A DNA stretch of 57,701 nt from Candidatus Limnocylindria bacterium. Its GTDB lineage: Bacteria > Chloroflexota > Limnocylindria > P2-11E. The notes under the pieces were generated by a model. That model was given only the letters and a program-made list of their open reading frames with translations, made no database searches and was not told the DNA's origin. The position numbers were made by a program, and so were the translations under genes. The stretch spans positions 1 to 57,701 of the forward strand of contig DASWCU010000056.1 in the NCBI GenBank assembly GCA_036389935.1, written 5' to 3'. Below, piece by piece: positions 9,674-48,320 of the stretch; position 1 is the stretch's first letter; each line of letters starts with the position of its first letter.

Positions 9674-11591
9674 ACGGACCACGGGGGCGGCGGCTCCGAA
9701 CGCGGCCGAGCGCGACCCGACGCAGCTCACCCTCTCGCTCCCGTTCGGCCGGCCGGTCCGCGGCGCGAACGCGCTCGTCGCGCGCGACGACGGCAGCACG
9801 CTCGTCCCGTCGACGGACGCGGACTGGCAGGACTGGGTCGCGGCCGGCGCGACCGCGAGGTGGTGCCGAAATGACGCGCTCGTCGACTGGCTCGACCGCT
9901 ACGGCGCGGCCTGCGGTCACGTGCGCGACGATCGGCGCGCGGCGTACGACCCGCGATTCGACTTCCACGCGTTCCTCGCGGAGCAGGGCCTTCGCTTCGA
10001 GGAGGCGGTCATCGCCGACCTCGAGCGGCGGGTCGGCGTGACGCGGATCGCGACGGACCCGGCCGGAGCGCGCTCGCTCGCGGCGGCCGAGGCGACCGTC
10101 GCGGCCCTGGAGCGGGGCGAGCGCGTGATCGCGGGCGGGGTCCTTCGGGATCCGCAGGCCCGGAGCTACGGCCGCGTCGACCTGCTCGTCCGCTCCGACG
10201 TCCTGACGGAGCTGTGCGCCGACGCGTTCTGGGAGGGCGACGATCCGGGCGCGGTCGCGCCGGGCCTCTACGGTGCGGCGTGGCACTACCGCGTCGTGGA
10301 CGTGAAGTTCTCGACGCTCGAGCTGCTGAAGGACGGGTCGCTCTCGACCTCGAGCGACCTCGCGACGTGCGCGCAGGTCTGGACATACGATCGCGCGCTC
10401 GCCCGCGTGCAGGGATACGCGCCGCCGTTCGCCTACGTGCTCGGACGCGCCTGGCGCCAGGGCCAGGCGAAGGGCGAGGCCTGCTGGCAGCGGCTCGCGC
10501 GGGTGCCGCATGCGGCATTCGTGCGCTCGCGCGAGGCCGCGCTCGAGGACGTCGTGGCCGAGGGCGCGAAGTGGATCCGGCGGATGCGGCGCGAGGGCGC
10601 GGAGTGGCAGGTGCTTCCGGTCCCGAGCGTCGACGAGCTCTGGCCGAACATGAAGTCCGACCGCGACTTCCCGTGGCACGAGGCGAAGAAGGAGATCGCG
10701 GACAAGCTCGGCGAGCTCACGTTGTTCTGGCAGGTGAGCGCCCCGATGCGCGATCGGGCCCGGCTGCGAGGCGTCACGCGCTGGGACGATCCGCGCGTCT
10801 CGGCCGCGTTCCTCGGCATCAGCGGCGAGCGGCGGGCGCTCATGTTCGACGCGCTGCTCGACGTGAACCGCGGCGACGGGCCGCCGCTCGCGCCGGTCCG
10901 GATCGAGGCGGACGAGGGTCGCTGGCGCGTCCCGGCGCCTTTGGAGCTCTACGTCGACTTCGAGACGGTGAACGATCTCGACGACGATTTCACGTCATTC
11001 CCGCAGCGGGGCGGGAGCCCGCTCATCTTCCAGGTCGGCTGCGGGCGGTACGACGAGGGGCGGTGGGAGTTCGTCCAATTCACCGCTCGCGCGCTCACGG
11101 CCGAGGCCGAGGCGGAGATGATCGACGCGTGGCTGGCGCACGTCGACCGCCTCGCGCGGGCGGCCGGGCTCGCCGGCGCGAGCGAGCCGCGGCTGTTCCA
11201 CTGGTCGGCCGCCGAGACCGTGTTCATGGACGCGATGTACGACTCGGCGCGGGCGCGGCATCCGGACCGACCCTGGCCGGCGCTCGGCTGGTACGACCTG
11301 CTCGAGCGCATCGTCCACGCCGGGCCGGTCGTCGTCCGTGGCGCCCGGCGGTTCGGGCTGAAGTCCGTGGCGCGGGCGATGCGCGCGCACGGCCTCATCG
11401 AGACCGAATGGGGCGAGGGCCTCGCCGACGGCACCGGCGCCATGGCCGGTGCCTGGGCCGCGGCTCGCCTGGCCGCGGCGAACGGCGGGAACATCGCGGA
11501 GGTCGAGCTGATGCGCGAGGTCGGCCGCTACAACGAGATCGATTGCCGGGTCATGGCCGAGGTGCTCGACCACCTGCGTCGCGAGCACTGA
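9666..11591 (+). CDS. Two-nuclease fusion: N-terminal RecB-like PD-(D/E)xK domain plus C-terminal RNase H-fold DEDDy 3'-5' exonuclease-like domain (TM0106/YprB-like architecture)
   Basis: N-terminal half: GRVD172LLV ... VVD212VK214 ... Q237VWTY241 (D / DxK / QxxxY). C-terminal half: LYVD431FE433TV ... GLKSVARAM ... Y622NEID626. Start overlaps the HAD stop by 8 nt; 3' end overlaps the convergent LLM gene by 41 nt. Confidence 0.6.
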   Translation: MAERTTGAAAPNAAERDPTQLTLSLPFGRPVRGANALVARDDGSTLVPSTDADWQDWVAAGATARWCRNDALVDWLDRYGAACGHVRDDRRAAYDPRFDFHAFLAEQGLRFEEAVIADLERRVGVTRIATDPAGARSLAAAEATVAALERGERVIAGGVLRDPQARSYGRVDLLVRSDVLTELCADAFWEGDDPGAVAPGLYGAAWHYRVVDVKFSTLELLKDGSLSTSSDLATCAQVWTYDRALARVQGYAPPFAYVLGRAWRQGQAKGEACWQRLARVPHAAFVRSREAALEDVVAEGAKWIRRMRREGAEWQVLPVPSVDELWPNMKSDRDFPWHEAKKEIADKLGELTLFWQVSAPMRDRARLRGVTRWDDPRVSAAFLGISGERRALMFDALLDVNRGDGPPLAPVRIEADEGRWRVPAPLELYVDFETVNDLDDDFTSFPQRGGSPLIFQVGCGRYDEGRWEFVQFTARALTAEAEAEMIDAWLAHVDRLARAAGLAGASEPRLFHWSAAETVFMDAMYDSARARHPDRPWPALGWYDLLERIVHAGPVVVRGARRFGLKSVARAMRAHGLIETEWGEGLADGTGAMAGAWAAARLAAANGGNIAEVELMREVGRYNEIDCRVMAEVLDHLRREH

Positions 11592-24067: not shown

Positions 24068-24170
24068 ACAACACCCGCCAAGCGGCTAAGCCGTCGAAAG
24101 ATAGCCTGAACGGCGACGGGCGTCTATATGGGAAATAGGTATGGGCACGGAACGCGCGACCGATGTCCGG

Positions 24171-24243
24171 CGGGCCGTGCGCGACTCGAACGCGCGACTT
24201 GCTGCTTAGAAGGCAGCCGCTCTATCCGCTGAGCTAACGGCCC
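24171..24243 (-). tRNA. tRNA-Arg (anticodon UCU)
   Basis: Reverse complement folds as a cloverleaf: GGGCCGU-UA-GCUC-AGCGGAUA-GAGC-G-GCUGC-CUUCUAA-GCAGC-AAGUC-GCGCG-UUCGAGU-CGCGC-ACGGCCC-G. 73 nt, GTTCGAGTC T-arm, CCA not encoded. Confidence 0.85.
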
Positions 24244-24256
24244 GTTCTTGCGTCCA

Positions 24257-25666
24257 TTATCGCTGGGCGGTGTGGATCGCCCGCCCGATCGAGACGAGCG
24301 CGGCCTCGTGCAGCGTCTCGGCGAGCGTGGGATGGGCGTGGATCGTGGCGACGAGGTCCTCGGCCGTGGCCTCGAGCCGCAGCGCGAGCGTCGCCTCGGC
24401 GATGAGCTCGCTGGCCTGCGGCCCGACGATATGCGCGCCGACGATGCGGCCGTGCGGCCCGGCGGTGATGAGCTTGCACAGCCCGTCGCTCTCACCGAGC
24501 GCGAGCGCCCGGCCCGACGCCTTGAACGAGAAGCGCGACGCCTTCGCATCCGGGTACCTCTCCCGCGCCTGGGCCTCGGTCAGGCCCACGGTCGCGAGCT
24601 CCGGATGGGCGTACACCACGTTCGGCACCGCGTCGTAGTCCATCGTCGCGTCCTCGCCGAGGATCGTGTCCACCGCCACCTCGCCCTGGGTCGATGCGAC
24701 GTGCGCGAGCTTGGCGGAGCGGGGGTCGCCGATGCAGTCGCCGATAGCCCAGACGCCTCCGACGCTCGTCCGCATCCGATCGTCGACGGCGATGCCGAGC
24801 TTCTCGGTCTTGAGCCCGGCATTCTCGACGCCGCTGTAGTTCGCGACGCGACCGGCGCCGAGCACCACCTCGTCGCCGTCGATGGAGCCGGACTTCCCCT
24901 CGGTCTCGTAGGCGACGGTCACCGATCCCTTGCCCCGGTGGACCTCGGTGACCTTCGCGTTCGTGATGACCTCGAGGCCCTTCGGCTTCAGCGAGCGGAC
25001 GAGGATCCGTACGAGCTCCGGGTCGGCGTAGGCGAGCGGCTGGGGCAGGAGCTCGAGCACGGTCACGGTCGAGCCGACCTCCGCGAAGAAGGTACCGAGC
25101 TCCATCCCGATGACCCCACCTCCGATGACGACGAGCCGCTTCGGGATCTTCGTCAGCGCGAGCGCGCCGACGTTGTCGAGCGGCTTCGCCTCGGCCAGGC
25201 CGGCGATCGGCGGGATCCCGACCTTGGAGCCGGTCGCCACGATCACCGCGTTGGCCTTCACCGAGCGCTCCGTTCCGGCGACCTTCACCGTGAGCTCGCC
25301 GGGTGCGGCGAGGGTCCCCTCGCCTGTGATGAGATCGACCTTCCGGCCCTTCAGCAGCTGCTCGGTCCCTCGGACGAGCTGATCGACCACCGCGTCCTTG
25401 CGCGCGACCGCCTGGCGGAGGTCGAACGAGGCGCCCTGCACGTTGATCCCGTGCTCCTGCCCGTGTGTGGCGGCCCAGTACGCGTGGCTCGAGTCGAGGA
25501 GGGCCTTCGAGGGGATGCAGCCGACCGTGACGCAGGTGCCACCGACGCGATCGCGTTCGACGAGCGCGACCCGCGCACCCTTCGCGCCGGCGTAGAGCGC
25601 CGCGACGTAGCCGCCGGGCCCTCCGCCGAGGATCGCGATGTCGTACGTGCCGGCGGTGTCGGTCAC
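24257..25666 (-). CDS. lpd: Dihydrolipoyl dehydrogenase
   Basis: YDIAILGGGPGGY, GGTCVTVGCIPSK redox-active disulfide and C-terminal HAHPTLAE signature. Confidence 0.9.
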   Translation of the reverse strand: MTDTAGTYDIAILGGGPGGYVAALYAGAKGARVALVERDRVGGTCVTVGCIPSKALLDSSHAYWAATHGQEHGINVQGASFDLRQAVARKDAVVDQLVRGTEQLLKGRKVDLITGEGTLAAPGELTVKVAGTERSVKANAVIVATGSKVGIPPIAGLAEAKPLDNVGALALTKIPKRLVVIGGGVIGMELGTFFAEVGSTVTVLELLPQPLAYADPELVRILVRSLKPKGLEVITNAKVTEVHRGKGSVTVAYETEGKSGSIDGDEVVLGAGRVANYSGVENAGLKTEKLGIAVDDRMRTSVGGVWAIGDCIGDPRSAKLAHVASTQGEVAVDTILGEDATMDYDAVPNVVYAHPELATVGLTEAQARERYPDAKASRFSFKASGRALALGESDGLCKLITAGPHGRIVGAHIVGPQASELIAEATLALRLEATAEDLVATIHAHPTLAETLHEAALVSIGRAIHTAQR

Positions 25667-25917
25667 CCGAGGAGCAGCGTATCCGCGCTCGCGGCGTCGC
25701 GCTCCAACGGATGCGCCCGGTACCCGTAGCGCGCGAGCAGCAAGAGGTAGAGCGGCAGGTACGCGAGGCCGATCCGCTCGTACTGCGCGACGTGGCGGCG
25801 TTCGTGCATCCAGAGCGCCTCCGTAGGCTCACGCGCGGCGACGATGACGTGGCCGAAGGTGATCGCCGTGTAGCCACGCCGCGTGAGCAGGATGCGCGCG
25901 AGCCCACGGTCGCTCAC
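25663..25917 (-). CDS. Small HExxH (zincin, DUF4157-like) protein
   Basis: GTG start. GYTAITFGHVIVA...ALWMHERRHVAQYE resembles the DUF4157 zincin core and is followed by a hydrophobic segment. ATGA overlap with the lpd start. Confidence 0.45.
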   Translation of the reverse strand: MSDRGLARILLTRRGYTAITFGHVIVAAREPTEALWMHERRHVAQYERIGLAYLPLYLLLLARYGYRAHPLERDAASADTLLLG

Positions 25918-26020
25918 GTACAGGAAGCAGCCGTCCCGAACACGGGGGCGCGCGAACGAGAGCGCTCCGACGAGATGACCCAGTGGATCGGCGTGATGCC
26001 CGGCGAGGATGCGCCTCAGA

Positions 26021-26338
26021 TCACTGAGCGACTCGCTCGACCACCTTCTCCACCGCCGCGATGACCTTGGCCTCGGTGGTGAGGTGAGGGTCGTAGCGGA
26101 CCACGAGCCGGTGCGCGACCGCGTCCGCCTCGACGTGGGTGACGCCCTCGATGCGCCGCGTTCCCGCTACCACCTGTAGCGCACAGGTGTGTCATATGAG
26201 CTCGAGCACATCGAGCGTGACCTCGCCCTCATCCGCCGCGGCGACCGCCACGGTCGCGGGCGCGGCCGGTGGCGTCGCGGGCGCGCCGCAGCTGACGGAG
26301 ATGGCGAGAGCGAGCAGCAGAATGGGCGCCCGGTCCAC
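26021..26338 (-). CDS. Signal-peptide HMA (heavy-metal-associated, MerP/CopZ-like) protein with in-frame TGA at the first Cys of CxxC; candidate selenoprotein or nonsense pseudogene
   Basis: Absent from the ORF track because both halves are under 60 aa. Own translation from GTG 26338: VDRAPILLLALAISVSCGAPATPPAAPATVAVAAADEGEVTLDVLELI-TGA(26194..26192)-HTCALQVVAGTRRIEGVTHVEADAVAHRLVVRYDPHLTTEAKVIAAVEKVVERVAQ-TGA(26023..26021). Aligns without gaps to the HMA pattern. Confidence 0.55.
26171..26189 (-). other. Perfect 7-bp stem / 5-nt loop hairpin starting 2 nt after the in-frame UGA (SECIS-like position, atypically close)
   Basis: mRNA sense: UGA-CA-CACCUGU-GCGCU-ACAGGUG-GUAGC. Plus strand: CACCTGT-AGCGC-ACAGGTG. 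Confidence 0.5.
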
Positions 26339-26370
26339 GAGCGCCCATTCTGCGCTTCCAGTCGCGAACT

Positions 26371-47054: not shown

Positions 47055-47135
47055 AACCCCTAGGCTCGGACCGAGGCGATGAGGCTCGCCTGAACCGCCG
47101 CCCCGAGCGGCTGATGGCCTCTACCGATCAGACAC

Positions 47136-48320
47136 ATGGTGGAGGGCATCGTGGACACGCTGCTCGTCGCGACGATCATGGGCGGCCTCATCCTGCTCGC
47201 GTCGGTCGTGAGCGTCGAGCTCGGCATCTCGGTCGCGATCATCGAGATCGCGTTCGGCGTGATCGCCGGCAACTTCCTGGGCATCACCTCGACGCCGTGG
47301 GTCGACTTCATCGCGGCGTTCGCGTCGATCGTGCTCACGTTCCTCGCCGGCGCCGAGGTCGATCCGGGCCTGCTTCGCGAGAAGTGGCGCGCCTCCTTCC
47401 TCATCGGCGGCCTCTCGTTCGCGCTGCCGTTCGCGGGCGCGGGCCTGTTCGCGTACGTCGTCGCCGGCTGGAACGTCCAGCAGTCGGAGATCGCCGGCGT
47501 CGCGCTCTCCACCACGTCGCTCGCCGTCGTGTACGCGGTCCTCGTGGAGACCGGCCTGACGAGGACGGAGATCGGGAAGGTGATCATGGCCGCGACGTTC
47601 GTCACCGATCTCGGGACGGCGCTCGCGCTCTCGATCCTGTTCATCACGCCGACGGCGTACCTGGTGGTCTTCATCGCCGTCTCGGTCGCGGTGATCGTCG
47701 TGATGGCCACCCTGCAGCGGCCCTTCTTCGCCCGCTACGGCGATCGGGTCATCGAGCCGGAGCTGAAGGGCGCGTTCTTCGCGCTGTTCCTGCTCATGTG
47801 GACGGCCGAGCTGGCGCACAGCCAGGCCGTGCTTCCGGCGTTCGTGCTCGGGCTCACGGTGGCCGGCGTGTTCAGCCGCCATCCCGAGCAGCTGAAACGC
47901 TTCCGGGTCGTCGCGTTCTCGCTGCTCACGCCGTTCTTCTTCTTCAAGGGCGGGCTCAACGTCGATCTCGCCGCGCTCGCGGCCGCGGTCCCGCTCCTGG
48001 CCGGCTTCTTCGTGGTGAAGATCGGCCTCAAATTCGTCGGCGTGCTGCCGGCGGCGCTGCGCTACGTCCGGCCACACGCGACCTTCACGACCCTCCTCAT
48101 GAGCACCGGGCTGACCTTCGGCACGATCTCGTCGCTCTACGGGCTCAACGCCGGGATCATCGACCGGACCCAGTTCTCGATCCTCGTCACGGTCGTCATC
48201 CTCTCCGCGATCCTCCCGACCGCGATCGCGCAGCGATTCTTCTCGCCGCCCGTCCACCGGCTCACCGACGCCGAGGTCGTCGCCGTCGAGGACGAGGAGT
48301 TCGAGCCTTCGCGCGCGTAG
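47136..48320 (+). CDS. Cation:proton antiporter (CPA1/CPA2, Na+/H+ exchanger family)
   Basis: About 12 TM segments. N-terminal LGISVAIIEIAFGVIAGNFLG and LTFLAGAEVD are typical of Kef/NhaP-type exchangers. Confidence 0.8.
   Translation: MVEGIVDTLLVATIMGGLILLASVVSVELGISVAIIEIAFGVIAGNFLGITSTPWVDFIAAFASIVLTFLAGAEVDPGLLREKWRASFLIGGLSFALPFAGAGLFAYVVAGWNVQQSEIAGVALSTTSLAVVYAVLVETGLTRTEIGKVIMAATFVTDLGTALALSILFITPTAYLVVFIAVSVAVIVVMATLQRPFFARYGDRVIEPELKGAFFALFLLMWTAELAHSQAVLPAFVLGLTVAGVFSRHPEQLKRFRVVAFSLLTPFFFFKGGLNVDLAALAAAVPLLAGFFVVKIGLKFVGVLPAALRYVRPHATFTTLLMSTGLTFGTISSLYGLNAGIIDRTQFSILVTVVILSAILPTAIAQRFFSPPVHRLTDAEVVAVEDEEFEPSRA

What the first reader, a model, noticed from the sequence alone, without database searches (positions are those of the whole stretch)
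26021..26338. Hidden gene: secreted HMA metal-binding protein with in-frame UGA at the first Cys of CxxC (candidate selenoprotein)
The 26.0-26.34 kb gap looks empty in the ORF track because a TGA splits the gene into 48- and 56-codon pieces.

Read through, the minus strand encodes a signal peptide (VDRAPILLLALAISVSC) and a Pro/Ala linker. A complete ferredoxin-like HMA domain follows: EVTLDVLELI-U-HTCALQVVAGTRRIEGVTHVEADAVAHRLVVRYDPHLTTEAKVIAAVEK. This aligns residue-for-residue, without gaps, to the CopZ/MerP pattern TLxVxGMxCxxCxxxVxxxLxxxxGVxxVxVxLxxxxVxVxxD. The TGA (26194..26192) falls exactly where the first metal-binding Cys should be, giving U-H-T-C.

Sec replacing a Cys of a CxxC redox or metal motif is the classical bacterial selenoprotein signature. 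The signal peptide plus single HMA domain gives a MerP-like topology. Codon third positions stay GC-rich in this frame on both sides of the TGA. The alternative is a one-base TGC/TGT-to-TGA nonsense mutation, i.e. a pseudogene.
Basis: partly seen in the sequence, partly recalled or inferred. Interest (0 to 1): 0.8.

Follow-up and report, generated by a model that had tools for sequence, protein, structure and literature searches.

The report
Selenocysteine metal-binding lipoprotein gene with SECIS
The apparent gap holds a real gene for a small membrane-anchored metal-binding protein. Its first metal-binding cysteine is very probably replaced by selenocysteine, read from a UGA "stop" codon with the help of a conserved RNA hairpin. 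It is a new example of a kind of protein that is already known.

Summary
Window 26338..26021 (minus strand) is one reading frame: a lipoprotein signal peptide, an Ala/Pro linker and an HMA domain. It is interrupted only by TGA at 26194..26192, exactly where the first Cys of the CxxC metal site belongs.

It is not a pseudogene or a sequencing error.
- Three independent soil-metagenome contigs carry the same gene (317/318 nt) with the TGA.
- Fourteen distinct sequences keep the in-frame TGA with both halves intact.
- At least 120 orthologues have Cys (mostly CHSC). NCBI names several of them Candidatus Limnocylindria (Chloroflexota). Two of them were fetched and sit in the same gene neighbourhood.

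In the TGA forms only, the roughly 35 nt after TGA are frozen even at synonymous sites. They form a 6-bp hairpin with an AGGUG loop starting 10 nt after UGA. A divergent member keeps this hairpin through three compensatory pair changes, and the two Cys orthologues checked lack it. The geometry is close to the E. coli fdhF SECIS. An arsenite methyltransferase gene with TGA at its active-site Cys, on a Limnocylindria contig, has a hairpin of identical geometry.

The genes that decode selenocysteine could not be searched for in the source genome.

Verdict: a genuine selenoprotein gene (about 0.85). It is a new family within the known class of HMA-type selenoproteins.

The parts
26021..26338 (-). 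Whole gene: 105 codons including one in-frame UGA, plus the stop codon. It encodes a lipoprotein with a single HMA domain and a U-H-T-C metal site.
   Evidence: Translation. Pfam HMA hit. Codon-position GC. Fourteen distinct TGA forms and many full-length Cys homologues.
26336..26338 (-). GTG start codon.
   Evidence: Other family members have GTG or ATG at this position, for example ATG in L013 and GTG in L006 (= database protein P0002, MNRALILLL...).
26288..26338 (-). Lipoprotein signal peptide VDRAPILLLALAISVSC. The lipobox Cys17 codon is at 26290..26288.
   Evidence: A PROSITE-style lipobox rule, written from memory, is met by the window and by all 12 other family members tested.
26228..26287 (-). 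Ala/Pro-rich linker (residues 18-37).
   Evidence: Translation. Length and sequence vary among family members.
26024..26227 (-). HMA (heavy-metal-associated) domain, residues 38-105.
   Evidence: Pfam PF00403. Gap-free alignments to solved HMA domains.
26192..26194 (-). In-frame UGA, the inferred selenocysteine codon. It occupies the first position of the U-H-T-C metal-binding motif.
   Evidence: Aligns to the first Cys of GMTCxxC. It is TGA in 14 distinct sequences and TGC/TGT in the syntenic orthologues L006-L011.
26183..26185 (-). TGT, the second Cys of the UxxC motif.
   Evidence: Invariant in all forms.
26165..26181 (-). Inferred SECIS hairpin CGCUAC-AGGUG-GUAGCG. It has a 6-bp stem and a 5-nt loop and occupies positions 14-30 counting the U of UGA as 1.
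   Evidence: 98.8% of cells paired. Three of 6 pairs changed on both sides (all in L022); 1 of 500 shuffles does as well. TGA forms have 6/6 pairs (5/6 in L012) against 4/6 and 2/6 in the two Cys forms checked. The ArsM TGA in L001 has the same geometry. It resembles the E. coli fdhF SECIS.
26157..26197 (-). Block frozen at the nucleotide level in TGA forms: AUA UGA C.C ... UGU GCG CUA CAG GUG GUA GCG GGA ACG CG. It includes codons that are rare in a 71% GC genome (AUA, CUA, GUA, GGA).
   Evidence: Third-position pairwise identity is 0.93 in codons +3..+11 against 0.61 elsewhere. Codon table.
26319..26351 (-). Conserved 13-bp hairpin with the start codon in its loop. It lies between the csbD stop and the signal-peptide coding region. 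Its role is unknown; it could be a csbD terminator or a control of translation initiation.
   Evidence: RNAalifold on 9 loci, both Sec and Cys forms: 13 pairs, 3 of them with compensatory changes. Sequences. The simple terminator scan does not call it.

Best explanation
This is a functional selenoprotein gene.

Protein. It encodes a roughly 105-residue lipoprotein. The protein is exported and lipid-anchored through Cys17, and a flexible Ala/Pro linker holds one HMA domain outside the cytoplasmic membrane. The metal site is Sec49-His-Thr-Cys52.

Decoding. UGA at 26194..26192 is decoded as selenocysteine. The hairpin CGCUAC-AGGUG-GUAGCG begins 10 nt after the UGA. When the UGA is in the ribosomal A site, the hairpin sits just outside the mRNA entry channel. 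There it recruits SelB carrying GTP and Sec-tRNA(Sec), as the fdhF SECIS does in E. coli.

Function. The protein most likely binds a soft metal or metalloid ion, such as Cu(I), Hg(II), Ag(I), Cd(II) or As(III), at the cell surface, for buffering or hand-off. The selenolate gives a tighter or faster ligand than the thiolate of the Cys orthologues.

Shown: the reading frame, the domain, the conserved UGA, the Cys orthologues, the conserved hairpin with covariation, and a second gene with the same arrangement in the same lineage.
Inferred: SelB-dependent Sec insertion, export and lipidation, and the identity of the metal.
For: 1. The frame and the HMA domain are confirmed.

2. The TGA is not an assembly error. 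L012, L020 and L021 come from other samples, are 317/318 nt identical and carry TGA.

3. Fourteen distinct sequences keep the in-frame TGA (window, L012, L003, L004, L005, L013-L018, L022-L024). In the twelve whose contig includes the 5' part, the signal peptide, lipobox and 57 downstream codons are intact (63 in L017). Amino-acid identity to the window falls to about 50%.

4. At least 120 homologues have Cys at that column: CHSC 87, CHTC 3, CQTC 1. The fetched ones, L006/L007 and L008-L011, lie in the same csbD / HMA / small HExxH protein / Lpd synteny.

5. In a neighbour-joining tree of 131 HMA domains, the 11 TGA forms included make one clade with no Cys form inside it. This points to a single old origin followed by long maintenance.

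6. Synonymous sites are frozen after the UGA only in TGA forms: 0.93 against 0.61.

7. The hairpin at positions 14-30 has 98.8% of cells paired and 3 compensatory pairs, with 1 of 500 shuffles reaching that. The competing lower-energy hairpin at positions 6-24 has 8 broken cells and no compensation.

8. The two Cys orthologues checked cannot form the stem: 4/6 and 2/6 pairs, -0.4 and +2.9 kcal/mol, against -5.6 to -7.2 for TGA forms.

9. The E. coli fdhF SECIS sequence was verified. Its minimal hairpin starts 11 nt after UGA (spacing from my own knowledge) and its loop holds GGUC closed by an A-U pair. The hairpin here starts 10 nt after UGA and its loop is AGGUG. In fdhF the SECIS spans the 13 codons after UGA (PMC4513850); here the frozen block spans about 12.

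10. Contig L001, named Candidatus Limnocylindria, has an arsenite methyltransferase gene with TGA at the conserved As-binding Cys (LWSG-U-IAGAL). Its hairpin CUCUGC-UGGAU-GCAGAG has the same 10-nt spacer, 6-bp stem and 5-nt loop with GG. ArsM is a published selenoprotein family (PMC2398784).

11. Selenoproteins are known in Chloroflexi (PMC1794560).
Against: - The selA, selB, selC (tRNA-Sec) and selD genes were not seen. None lies in the 57.7-kb window. No tRNA-Sec was found in the 14 larger loci scanned. The source genome could not be searched.
- All three compensatory pairs come from one divergent sequence, L022. The other TGA forms are nearly invariant in the hairpin and say nothing about its structure.
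- The hairpin is short, at 6 bp and about -7 kcal/mol. A more stable competing hairpin overlaps it.
- No Rfam family matches the site.
- One relative, L001, has a 1-nt deletion right after the TGA and a second indel, so at least one copy is decayed.
- There is no experimental evidence for Sec, for export or for the metal bound.
Confidence: 0.85

Rival explanations
1. The UGA is read through, but not as selenocysteine. A near-cognate or suppressor tRNA would insert Cys, Trp or Gly, or a tRNA-Cys shaped like tRNA-Sec would be delivered by a SelB-like factor. The hairpin would only stimulate read-through.
For: The Sec machinery was not observed in the window or in the loci scanned. The base after UGA is C in 13 of 14 forms. 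From my own knowledge, UGA-C is a weak termination context.
Against: The hairpin's spacing and GGU-containing loop match the SelB-binding fdhF element. The same geometry follows the TGA of ArsM, a published Sec family, in the same lineage. The UGA replaces a metal-ligand Cys, the classic Sec position. The gene's own stop codon is TGA, so UGA is a normal stop in this organism.
Confidence: 0.08
2. It is a pseudogene: a TGC/TGT-to-TGA nonsense mutation in a Cys-type HMA lipoprotein gene.
For: A single base change from TGC or TGT would produce it. Cys forms are the majority in the family. One relative, L001, really is decayed, with two indels. Another, L025, has lost the CxxC segment.
Against: Fourteen distinct sequences that have diverged to about 50% identity all keep the TGA. 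All 14 keep the downstream half in frame, and the 12 that include the 5' part keep the upstream half too. The coding-type GC pattern holds on both sides of the TGA. Synonymous sites are frozen downstream of the TGA. A compensated hairpin is present. The TGA forms make a single clade.
Confidence: 0.02
3. There are two separate small genes, or a regulatory stop. A 48-residue lipopeptide would end at the UGA. The downstream half would be translated on its own from GTG 26173, or not at all, and the hairpin would act as an attenuator.
For: Gene callers predict exactly these two ORFs, of 48 and 50 residues. In L001 an ATG overlaps the TGA (ATGA) and opens the downstream frame.
Against: An HMA fold needs strand 1 and the metal loop, which lie across the UGA, together with the rest of the domain. 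Alignments to solved structures run through the UGA without a gap. Residues between the UGA and GTG 26173, including the second Cys, are conserved in frame. The Cys orthologues are single 108-113-residue proteins.
Confidence: 0.03
4. The TGA is a sequencing or assembly error in this window.
For: None found.
Against: Three independent metagenome assemblies carry the same gene at 317/318 identity with TGA. Ten more diverged contigs also carry it.
Confidence: 0.01

Closest known systems
NCBIfam NF041115, 'UxxU metal-binding (seleno)protein' (listed in the 2026 selenoproteome review, PMC13188914)
   Same: A small protein with an HMA-type fold and selenocysteine in the metal-binding motif. It is the best NCBIfam hit of the window protein (31 bits).
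   Different: The score is far below the family cut-off (31 against 95 bits). The motif here is U-H-[ST]-C with one Sec, not UxxU. This protein carries a lipoprotein signal and linker and is confined to Limnocylindria-type contigs.
'Mercuric transport protein MerP' and 'cation-transporting ATPase E1-E2 (UxxC)' selenoproteins predicted in the GOS and Carboxydothermus analyses (PMC2398784, PMC13188914)
   Same: Sec replaces the first Cys of the CxxC of an HMA-type metal-binding domain. Like MerP, the protein has an export signal followed by a single HMA domain.
   Different: MerP (TIGR02052) scores 28 bits against a cut-off of 92.55. There is no merT, merA or merR nearby. The adjacent flavoprotein is dihydrolipoyl dehydrogenase (TIGR01350, 489 bits against 408.8) and falls below the MerA cut-off. 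This protein is lipid-anchored rather than soluble in the periplasm, and it is not fused to an ATPase.
E. coli fdhF SECIS element
   Same: A hairpin inside the coding region just after UGA-C. The spacer is 10 nt here and 11 nt in fdhF. The apical loop carries GGU (AGGUG here; A-GGUC-U in fdhF). The constrained region is about 12-13 codons long (PMC4513850).
   Different: There is no bulged U and no evident lower helix. The stem is a plain 6 bp. Binding to SelB is inferred, not shown.
CopZ / Atx1-type copper chaperones and HMA domains of P1B-ATPases
   Same: The same Pfam domain. Alignments to solved CopA and ATP7B domains have no gaps. JGI names the Cys forms 'copper chaperone CopZ'.
   Different: All CopZ NCBIfam models score far below their cut-offs. 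This protein is extracytoplasmic and lipid-anchored, not cytosolic. The motif is L-I-U/C-H-[ST]-C rather than G-M-T-C-x-x-C.
Sec-containing arsenite methyltransferase (ArsM) selenoproteins
   Same: A Cys that binds a metalloid is replaced by Sec. In L001 its SECIS has the same geometry as the one here.
   Different: It is an unrelated fold and function. It is relevant only as evidence that this lineage decodes Sec, and for the shape of its SECIS.

Membership tests
Bacterial selenoprotein gene (UGA decoded as Sec) | In-frame UGA conserved among orthologues, with an intact frame on both sides | tested here: met
   Fourteen distinct sequences. Three independent assemblies of the window's own gene.
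Bacterial selenoprotein gene (UGA decoded as Sec) | Homologues with Cys at the UGA column | tested here: met
   L006/L007 have TGC and L008-L011 have TGT, in the same synteny. At least 120 Cys-form clusters, mostly CHSC.
Bacterial selenoprotein gene (UGA decoded as Sec) | SECIS: a stem-loop in the coding region shortly after the UGA, with G in a small apical loop | tested here: met
   A 6-bp stem with an AGGUG loop at positions 14-30. 98.8% of cells paired and 3 compensatory pairs. Absent from the two Cys forms checked. Synonymous sites frozen. [quoted passage not shown]
Bacterial selenoprotein gene (UGA decoded as Sec) | selA, selB, selC (tRNA-Sec) and selD present in the same genome | not testable with these tools
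   None in the window. No tRNA-Sec in the loci scanned. Indirect support: ArsM with TGA plus a matching SECIS on a Limnocylindria contig.
Bacterial selenoprotein gene (UGA decoded as Sec) | Selenium demonstrably incorporated (75Se labelling or mass spectrometry) | not testable with these tools
   Needs an experiment.
HMA domain (Pfam PF00403) | Score at or above the Pfam gathering threshold | tested here: met
   28.0 bits against 24.8 with U written as C. The Cys forms carry precomputed PF00403 hits.
HMA domain (Pfam PF00403) | Metal-binding CxxC in the loop between strand 1 and helix 1 | tested here: met
   Gap-free alignments to ATP7B and CopA domains place U-H-T-C on C-x-x-C. The three-dimensional fold itself was not predicted.
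MerP (TIGR02052) / mer operon | Family score cut-off, and mer gene context (merT, merA, merR) | tested here: not met
   28 bits against 92.55. The neighbours are csbD, a small HExxH protein and dihydrolipoyl dehydrogenase, which scores MerA 354 against 454.
NF041115 UxxU metal-binding (seleno)protein | Family score cut-off, and the UxxU motif | tested here: not met
   31 bits against 95. The motif here is UxxC.
NF045683 MerT/CopZ fusion-like selenoprotein | Family score cut-off, and the MerT membrane domain | tested here: not met
   25 bits against 375. There is no MerT part.
CopZ copper chaperones (NF033795, NF033794, TIGR00003) | Family score cut-offs | tested here: not met
   17-20 bits against cut-offs of 62-95.
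Bacterial lipoprotein (lipobox signal peptide) | A positively charged N-terminal region, a hydrophobic core, then [LIVMFWSTAG]2-[LIVMFYSTAGCQ]-[AGS]-C with the Cys at residues 15-35 | tested here: met
   A regular expression reproducing the PROSITE PS51257 rule from memory matches the window (LLLALAISVSC, Cys17) and all 12 other members tested. Eleven of the 13 have K or R in the first 7 residues. No dedicated predictor was available.

The most novel reading that the evidence does not exclude
This is a previously undescribed selenoprotein family: a lipid-anchored, extracytoplasmic HMA metal-binding protein with a Sec-His-x-Cys site, specific to soil Limnocylindria (Chloroflexota).

- It arose once from a Cys (CHSC) ancestor.
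- Its SECIS loop was built on the pre-existing Gln-Val codons (CAG GUN) of helix 1, by retuning the flanking codons into a stem.
- Together with the Sec-containing ArsM on a Limnocylindria contig, it would show that this abundant but uncultured soil class decodes selenocysteine and uses it to handle metals and metalloids outside the cytoplasm.
Probability: 0.6. Interest if true: 0.55.

Novelty: new member of a known kind. Interest (0 to 1): 0.5.

Why it matters
- **Annotation.** Gene callers split this gene into two hypothetical ORFs of 48 and 50 residues, including in NCBI assemblies of related genomes. Recognising it corrects the annotation and adds a family to the prokaryotic selenoproteome.
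- **Lineage.** It gives sequence-level evidence that Limnocylindria, an uncultured soil lineage, decode selenocysteine.
- **A natural comparison.** Sec and Cys orthologues sit in the same genomic slot. That allows a direct test of what selenium adds to a metal-binding site, as opposed to a redox site.
- **A SECIS template.** The compact 17-nt SECIS, with verified covariation and a second example in ArsM, is a usable search pattern for more selenoprotein genes in high-GC Chloroflexota.

Tried and rejected
- The word-indexed protein search with the full U-to-C protein found nothing. The family is too divergent in 5-residue words.
It was rerun with the exact 56-residue C-terminal part, and that run found the family.
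It returned only L001, so relatives there are under-sampled.
- An alignment of 12 members was too diverse for the metagenome scan. An alignment of 4 TGA forms worked, but one of its two search patterns (CALQVVA) favours TGA forms. The TGA-to-Cys ratio from that scan is therefore not meaningful.
- Rfam gave nothing at the site, at gathering thresholds or at permissive E-values.
- No sel genes or tRNA-Sec were found in the window or in the loci scanned.
- The literature search for Limnocylindria together with selenium returned nothing.

**Ideas considered and rejected**
- The lowest-energy hairpin, at positions 6-24 with loop GCGCU, is the one found by single-sequence folding and by RNAalifold. 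I rejected it as the functional element. It has 8 broken cells and no compensatory change. L022 does not keep it. It would also lie inside the ribosome when the UGA reaches the A site; that last point is an inference.
- Single-sequence folding of the 71 nt after the UGA is no more stable than shuffled sequence (z = 0.0). Folding energy alone is therefore uninformative here.
- A MerP or mer-operon reading is rejected on scores and on gene context.
- A wholesale reassignment of UGA is rejected because this gene itself ends in TGA.

**Left unexplained**
- Positions 31-38 (GGAACGCG) and the AUA codon before the UGA are also frozen in most TGA forms. No conserved lower helix explains this.
Full report
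**1. The observation**

The minus strand of window 26338..26021 reads as a single frame:

VDRAPILLLALAISVSC-GAPATPPAAPATVAVAAADE-GEVTLDVLELI-TGA-HTCALQVVAGTRRIEGVTHVEADAVAHRLVVRYDPHLTTEAKVIAAVEKVVERVAQ-stop

There are 48 codons before the TGA at 26194..26192 and 56 after it. ORF listing shows only the two halves.

- With U written as C, the protein passes the Pfam HMA model (28.0 bits against a cut-off of 24.8).
- It aligns without gaps to solved HMA domains of ATP7B (E 4.5e-11) and B. subtilis CopA (E 1e-8). The U falls on the first Cys of GMTCxxC.
- GC by codon position is coding-like and in the same frame on both sides of the TGA: 0.81/0.54/0.88 and 0.80/0.41/0.88. Neighbouring genes show 0.71/0.48/0.94.

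**2. Not an error and not a one-off**

Three independent metagenome contigs (L012, L020, L021) carry the same gene at 317/318 nt identity, each with the TGA.

An exhaustive HMMER search with the exact C-terminal 56 residues returned two kinds of relative.
- Full-length proteins of 108-113 residues with C-H-[ST]-C or CQTC.
- A set of roughly 50-residue ORFs that start just after the motif.

Fetching the DNA of the short ones, together with a metagenome scan, showed that each is a TGA-split gene. In all, 14 distinct sequences have the in-frame TGA: window, L012, L003, L004, L005, L013-L018 and L022-L024.
- All 14 are in frame across the TGA. The twelve whose downstream half was read through run 57 codons to the stop (63 in L017).
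- The twelve whose contig includes the 5' part keep an intact signal peptide and lipobox.
- Amino-acid identity to the window falls to about 50%.

A nonsense mutation would not survive that much divergence with both halves under purifying selection.

**3. Cys orthologues in the same place**

The Cys forms L006/L007 (TGC) and L008-L011 (TGT) lie in the same gene order as the window: csbD, HMA, a roughly 100-residue HExxH protein, then dihydrolipoyl dehydrogenase. L006 also shares the window's PTPS, short-chain dehydrogenase, GTP cyclohydrolase I, GT4 and methyltransferase block.

A search seeded with a Cys form found 144 clusters. NCBI names several of them 'heavy-metal-associated domain-containing protein [Candidatus Limnocylindria bacterium]'. 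Among 120 full-length members the motif is CHSC in 87, CHTC in 3 and CQTC in 1.

In a neighbour-joining tree of 131 HMA domains, the 11 TGA forms included make one clade with no Cys form inside it. The shared, SECIS-constrained CALQVVAGTR stretch inflates their similarity, so this result is suggestive only.

**4. A recoding signal**

In the TGA forms, the sequence AUA-UGA-C.C-...-UGU-GCG-CUA-CAG-GUG-GUA-GCG-GGA-ACG-CG is almost invariant. This holds even at synonymous sites and for codons that are rare in a 71% GC genome. Third-position pairwise identity is 0.93 in codons +3..+11 against 0.61 elsewhere. The Cys forms use ordinary GC-rich codons there (TGC GCC TCG CAG GTC GCC ...).

Two mutually exclusive hairpins can form.
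- **Positions 6-24.** This is the lowest-energy structure. It has 8 broken cells and no compensatory change.
- **Positions 14-30, CGCUAC-AGGUG-GUAGCG.** It is paired in 98.8% of cells. In the divergent L022 it becomes UGUCAC-AGGUG-GUGACA, which changes three of six pairs on both sides. Only 1 of 500 shuffles does as well.

All three compensatory pairs come from that single lineage, so the covariation evidence is real but thin.

When the stem is forced, it is worth -5.6 to -7.2 kcal/mol in TGA forms. In the two Cys orthologues checked it is -0.4 and +2.9, with 4/6 and 2/6 pairs. The loop is encoded by the Gln-Val codons (CAG GUN), which those two Cys orthologues also have. The SECIS therefore seems to have been built by retuning the flanking codons; this is an inference.

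**5. Comparison with a known SECIS**

The E. coli fdhF element I recalled is exact in 5,419 E. coli genomes, within fdhF. Its minimal hairpin GGUUGC-AGGUCU-GCACC folds with GGUC in the loop. From my own knowledge (Liu et al. 1998; Fourmy et al. 2002), it starts 11 nt after UGA and SelB reads G23 and U24. In fdhF the SECIS covers the 13 codons after the UGA (PMC4513850).

Here the spacer is 10 nt, the loop is A-GGU-G, and the frozen block covers about 12 codons. A hairpin starting at +14 would sit just outside the mRNA channel when the UGA is in the A site, whereas the competing hairpin would be unwound. This last point is an inference.

Rfam holds no model that matches the site.

**6. Does the lineage decode Sec?**

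The window holds no selA, selB or selD and no tRNA-Sec. None of the 14 larger loci scanned holds a tRNA-Sec. I could not search the source genome.

There is indirect evidence. I scanned the window and nine of the larger loci for TGA codons with coding signal on both sides. The scan turned up an arsenite methyltransferase gene in L001, a contig named Candidatus Limnocylindria, reading LWSG-TGA-IAGAL.
- It matches ArsM models, including ArsM selenoprotein models.
- The TGA aligns with the conserved As-binding Cys of solved ArsM structures.
- ArsM is a published selenoprotein family (PMC2398784).
- Its TGA is followed by CUCUGC-UGGAU-GCAGAG, which has the same 10-nt spacer, 6-bp stem and 5-nt loop with GG at loop positions 2-3.

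A strict scan for this geometry, over the window and every locus fetched, found only HMA genes and this ArsM gene. By my own rough estimate, not a tool result, a match at one pre-specified TGA is about 1 in 1,000 by chance.

Selenoproteins are known in Chloroflexi (PMC1794560).

**7. What the protein is**

The N-terminus meets a PROSITE-style lipobox rule in the window and in all 12 other members tested. The protein is therefore probably exported and lipid-anchored, holding the HMA domain on an Ala/Pro linker.

The motif is U/C-H-[ST]-C, with a conserved His next to the first ligand (R in L005 and L013, S in L022).

The gene context gives no mer or cop partner. The flavoprotein downstream is dihydrolipoyl dehydrogenase (TIGR01350, 489 bits against 408.8) and falls below the MerA cut-off. 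A second subgroup of TGA forms lies elsewhere: L018 in an unrelated gene neighbourhood and L001 in a separate island. L001 is the decayed copy. It sits in an integrase-flanked island with an ArsR regulator, a CDF efflux pump, the Sec-containing ArsM and OsmC, which points towards metal or metalloid handling.

The identity of the metal and the benefit of Sec are inferred, not shown.

**8. Relation to known families**

HMA-type selenoproteins already exist in the literature and in NCBIfam.
- A 'MerP' selenoprotein and a UxxC cation ATPase (PMC2398784, PMC13188914).
- NF041115, a UxxU metal-binding (seleno)protein.
- NF045683, a MerT/CopZ fusion.

The window protein scores 31, 25 and 28 bits against NF041115, NF045683 and MerP, whose cut-offs are 95, 375 and 92.55. 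It works like them but belongs to none of them. Current annotation splits it into two ORFs.

I file it as a new member (a new family) of a known kind.

**9. Verdict**

- Genuine selenoprotein gene: about 0.85.
- Non-Sec read-through: about 0.08.
- Two separate ORFs or an attenuator: about 0.03.
- Pseudogene: about 0.02.
- Sequencing error: about 0.01.

Interest is moderate (0.5). This is a clean, well-supported addition to the selenoproteome, with a useful Sec/Cys contrast in a metal-binding site and a first indication of Sec use in Limnocylindria. It is not a new principle.

Noticed in passing
window 26319..26351 (minus strand); also L003 84-143, L004 4796-4855, L005 3105-3164, L006 5979-6038, L008 4976-5035: A 13-bp hairpin (AGAAUGG...CCAUUCU) lies between the csbD stop and the HMA gene, with the GTG/ATG start codon in its loop. 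It is conserved in both Sec and Cys forms, and 3 pairs show compensatory changes. It could be the csbD terminator (a U-rich tail follows in L004 and L023) or a control of translation initiation. The simple terminator scan does not call it.
   Followed up: partly
L001 10454..11236 (+), TGA at 11063..11065: An arsenite methyltransferase gene with an in-frame TGA at the conserved As-binding Cys (LWSG-U-IAGAL). It is followed by a hairpin (CUCUGC-UGGAU-GCAGAG) with the same geometry as the one in the HMA gene. This is a second probable selenoprotein gene on a Candidatus Limnocylindria contig.
   Followed up: yes
L001 6164..11779: An island next to tRNA-Glu and a phage-type integrase. It holds a CDF efflux pump, an ArsR-family regulator, an HMA copy, a small Cys-rich ORF (MACNCGNCCGACCSG...), the Sec-type ArsM and an OsmC-like gene. 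The HMA copy keeps the TGA and the identical 43-nt block, but has a 1-nt deletion right after the TGA, a second indel near its 3' end and no signal peptide. It is probably a decaying paralogue.
   Followed up: partly
window 25663..26016 (minus strand): The conserved downstream gene encodes a roughly 100-117-residue protein with an HERRH (HExxH-like) motif and no Pfam or NCBIfam match. In the window, the conserved N-terminal part (LAGHHADPLGHLVGALSFARPRVRDGCFLYV) lies upstream of the first ATG/GTG/TTG. L004 has GTG where the window has ATC. The start is therefore non-canonical, or the 84-residue ORF call is too short.
   Followed up: partly
window 26165 (G30 of the hairpin); L012 and L020: Two independent metagenome copies of the window's gene share a synonymous G-to-A change (GCG to GCA). 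It turns the basal C14-G30 pair of the SECIS stem into C-A. This is a population variant that weakens only the last pair.
   Followed up: no
window 26157..26164 and 26195..26197 (minus strand): Positions 31-38 after the UGA (GGAACGCG) are invariant in 13 of the 14 TGA forms, and the rare AUA codon just before the UGA is kept in 12 of 14. Neither lies in the supported stem, and no conserved lower helix was found.
   Followed up: partly
L025 3001..3216: A family member (P0009) in which the segment holding the CxxC motif is missing (VEIVGAGKVAAGTSRIPGV...). It lies in a different upstream context and is probably a degenerate copy.
   Followed up: no
window 47066..47130 (+): A fluoride riboswitch (Rfam RF01734, 46.6 bits) lies directly upstream of a gene of the Na+/H+ exchanger family (47136..48320).
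   Followed up: no
window 24169..24243 (minus strand): tRNA-Arg(TCT) lies just downstream of the dihydrolipoyl dehydrogenase gene. A tRNA-Arg(TCT) also lies a short way downstream of Lpd in L004 and L005.
   Followed up: no
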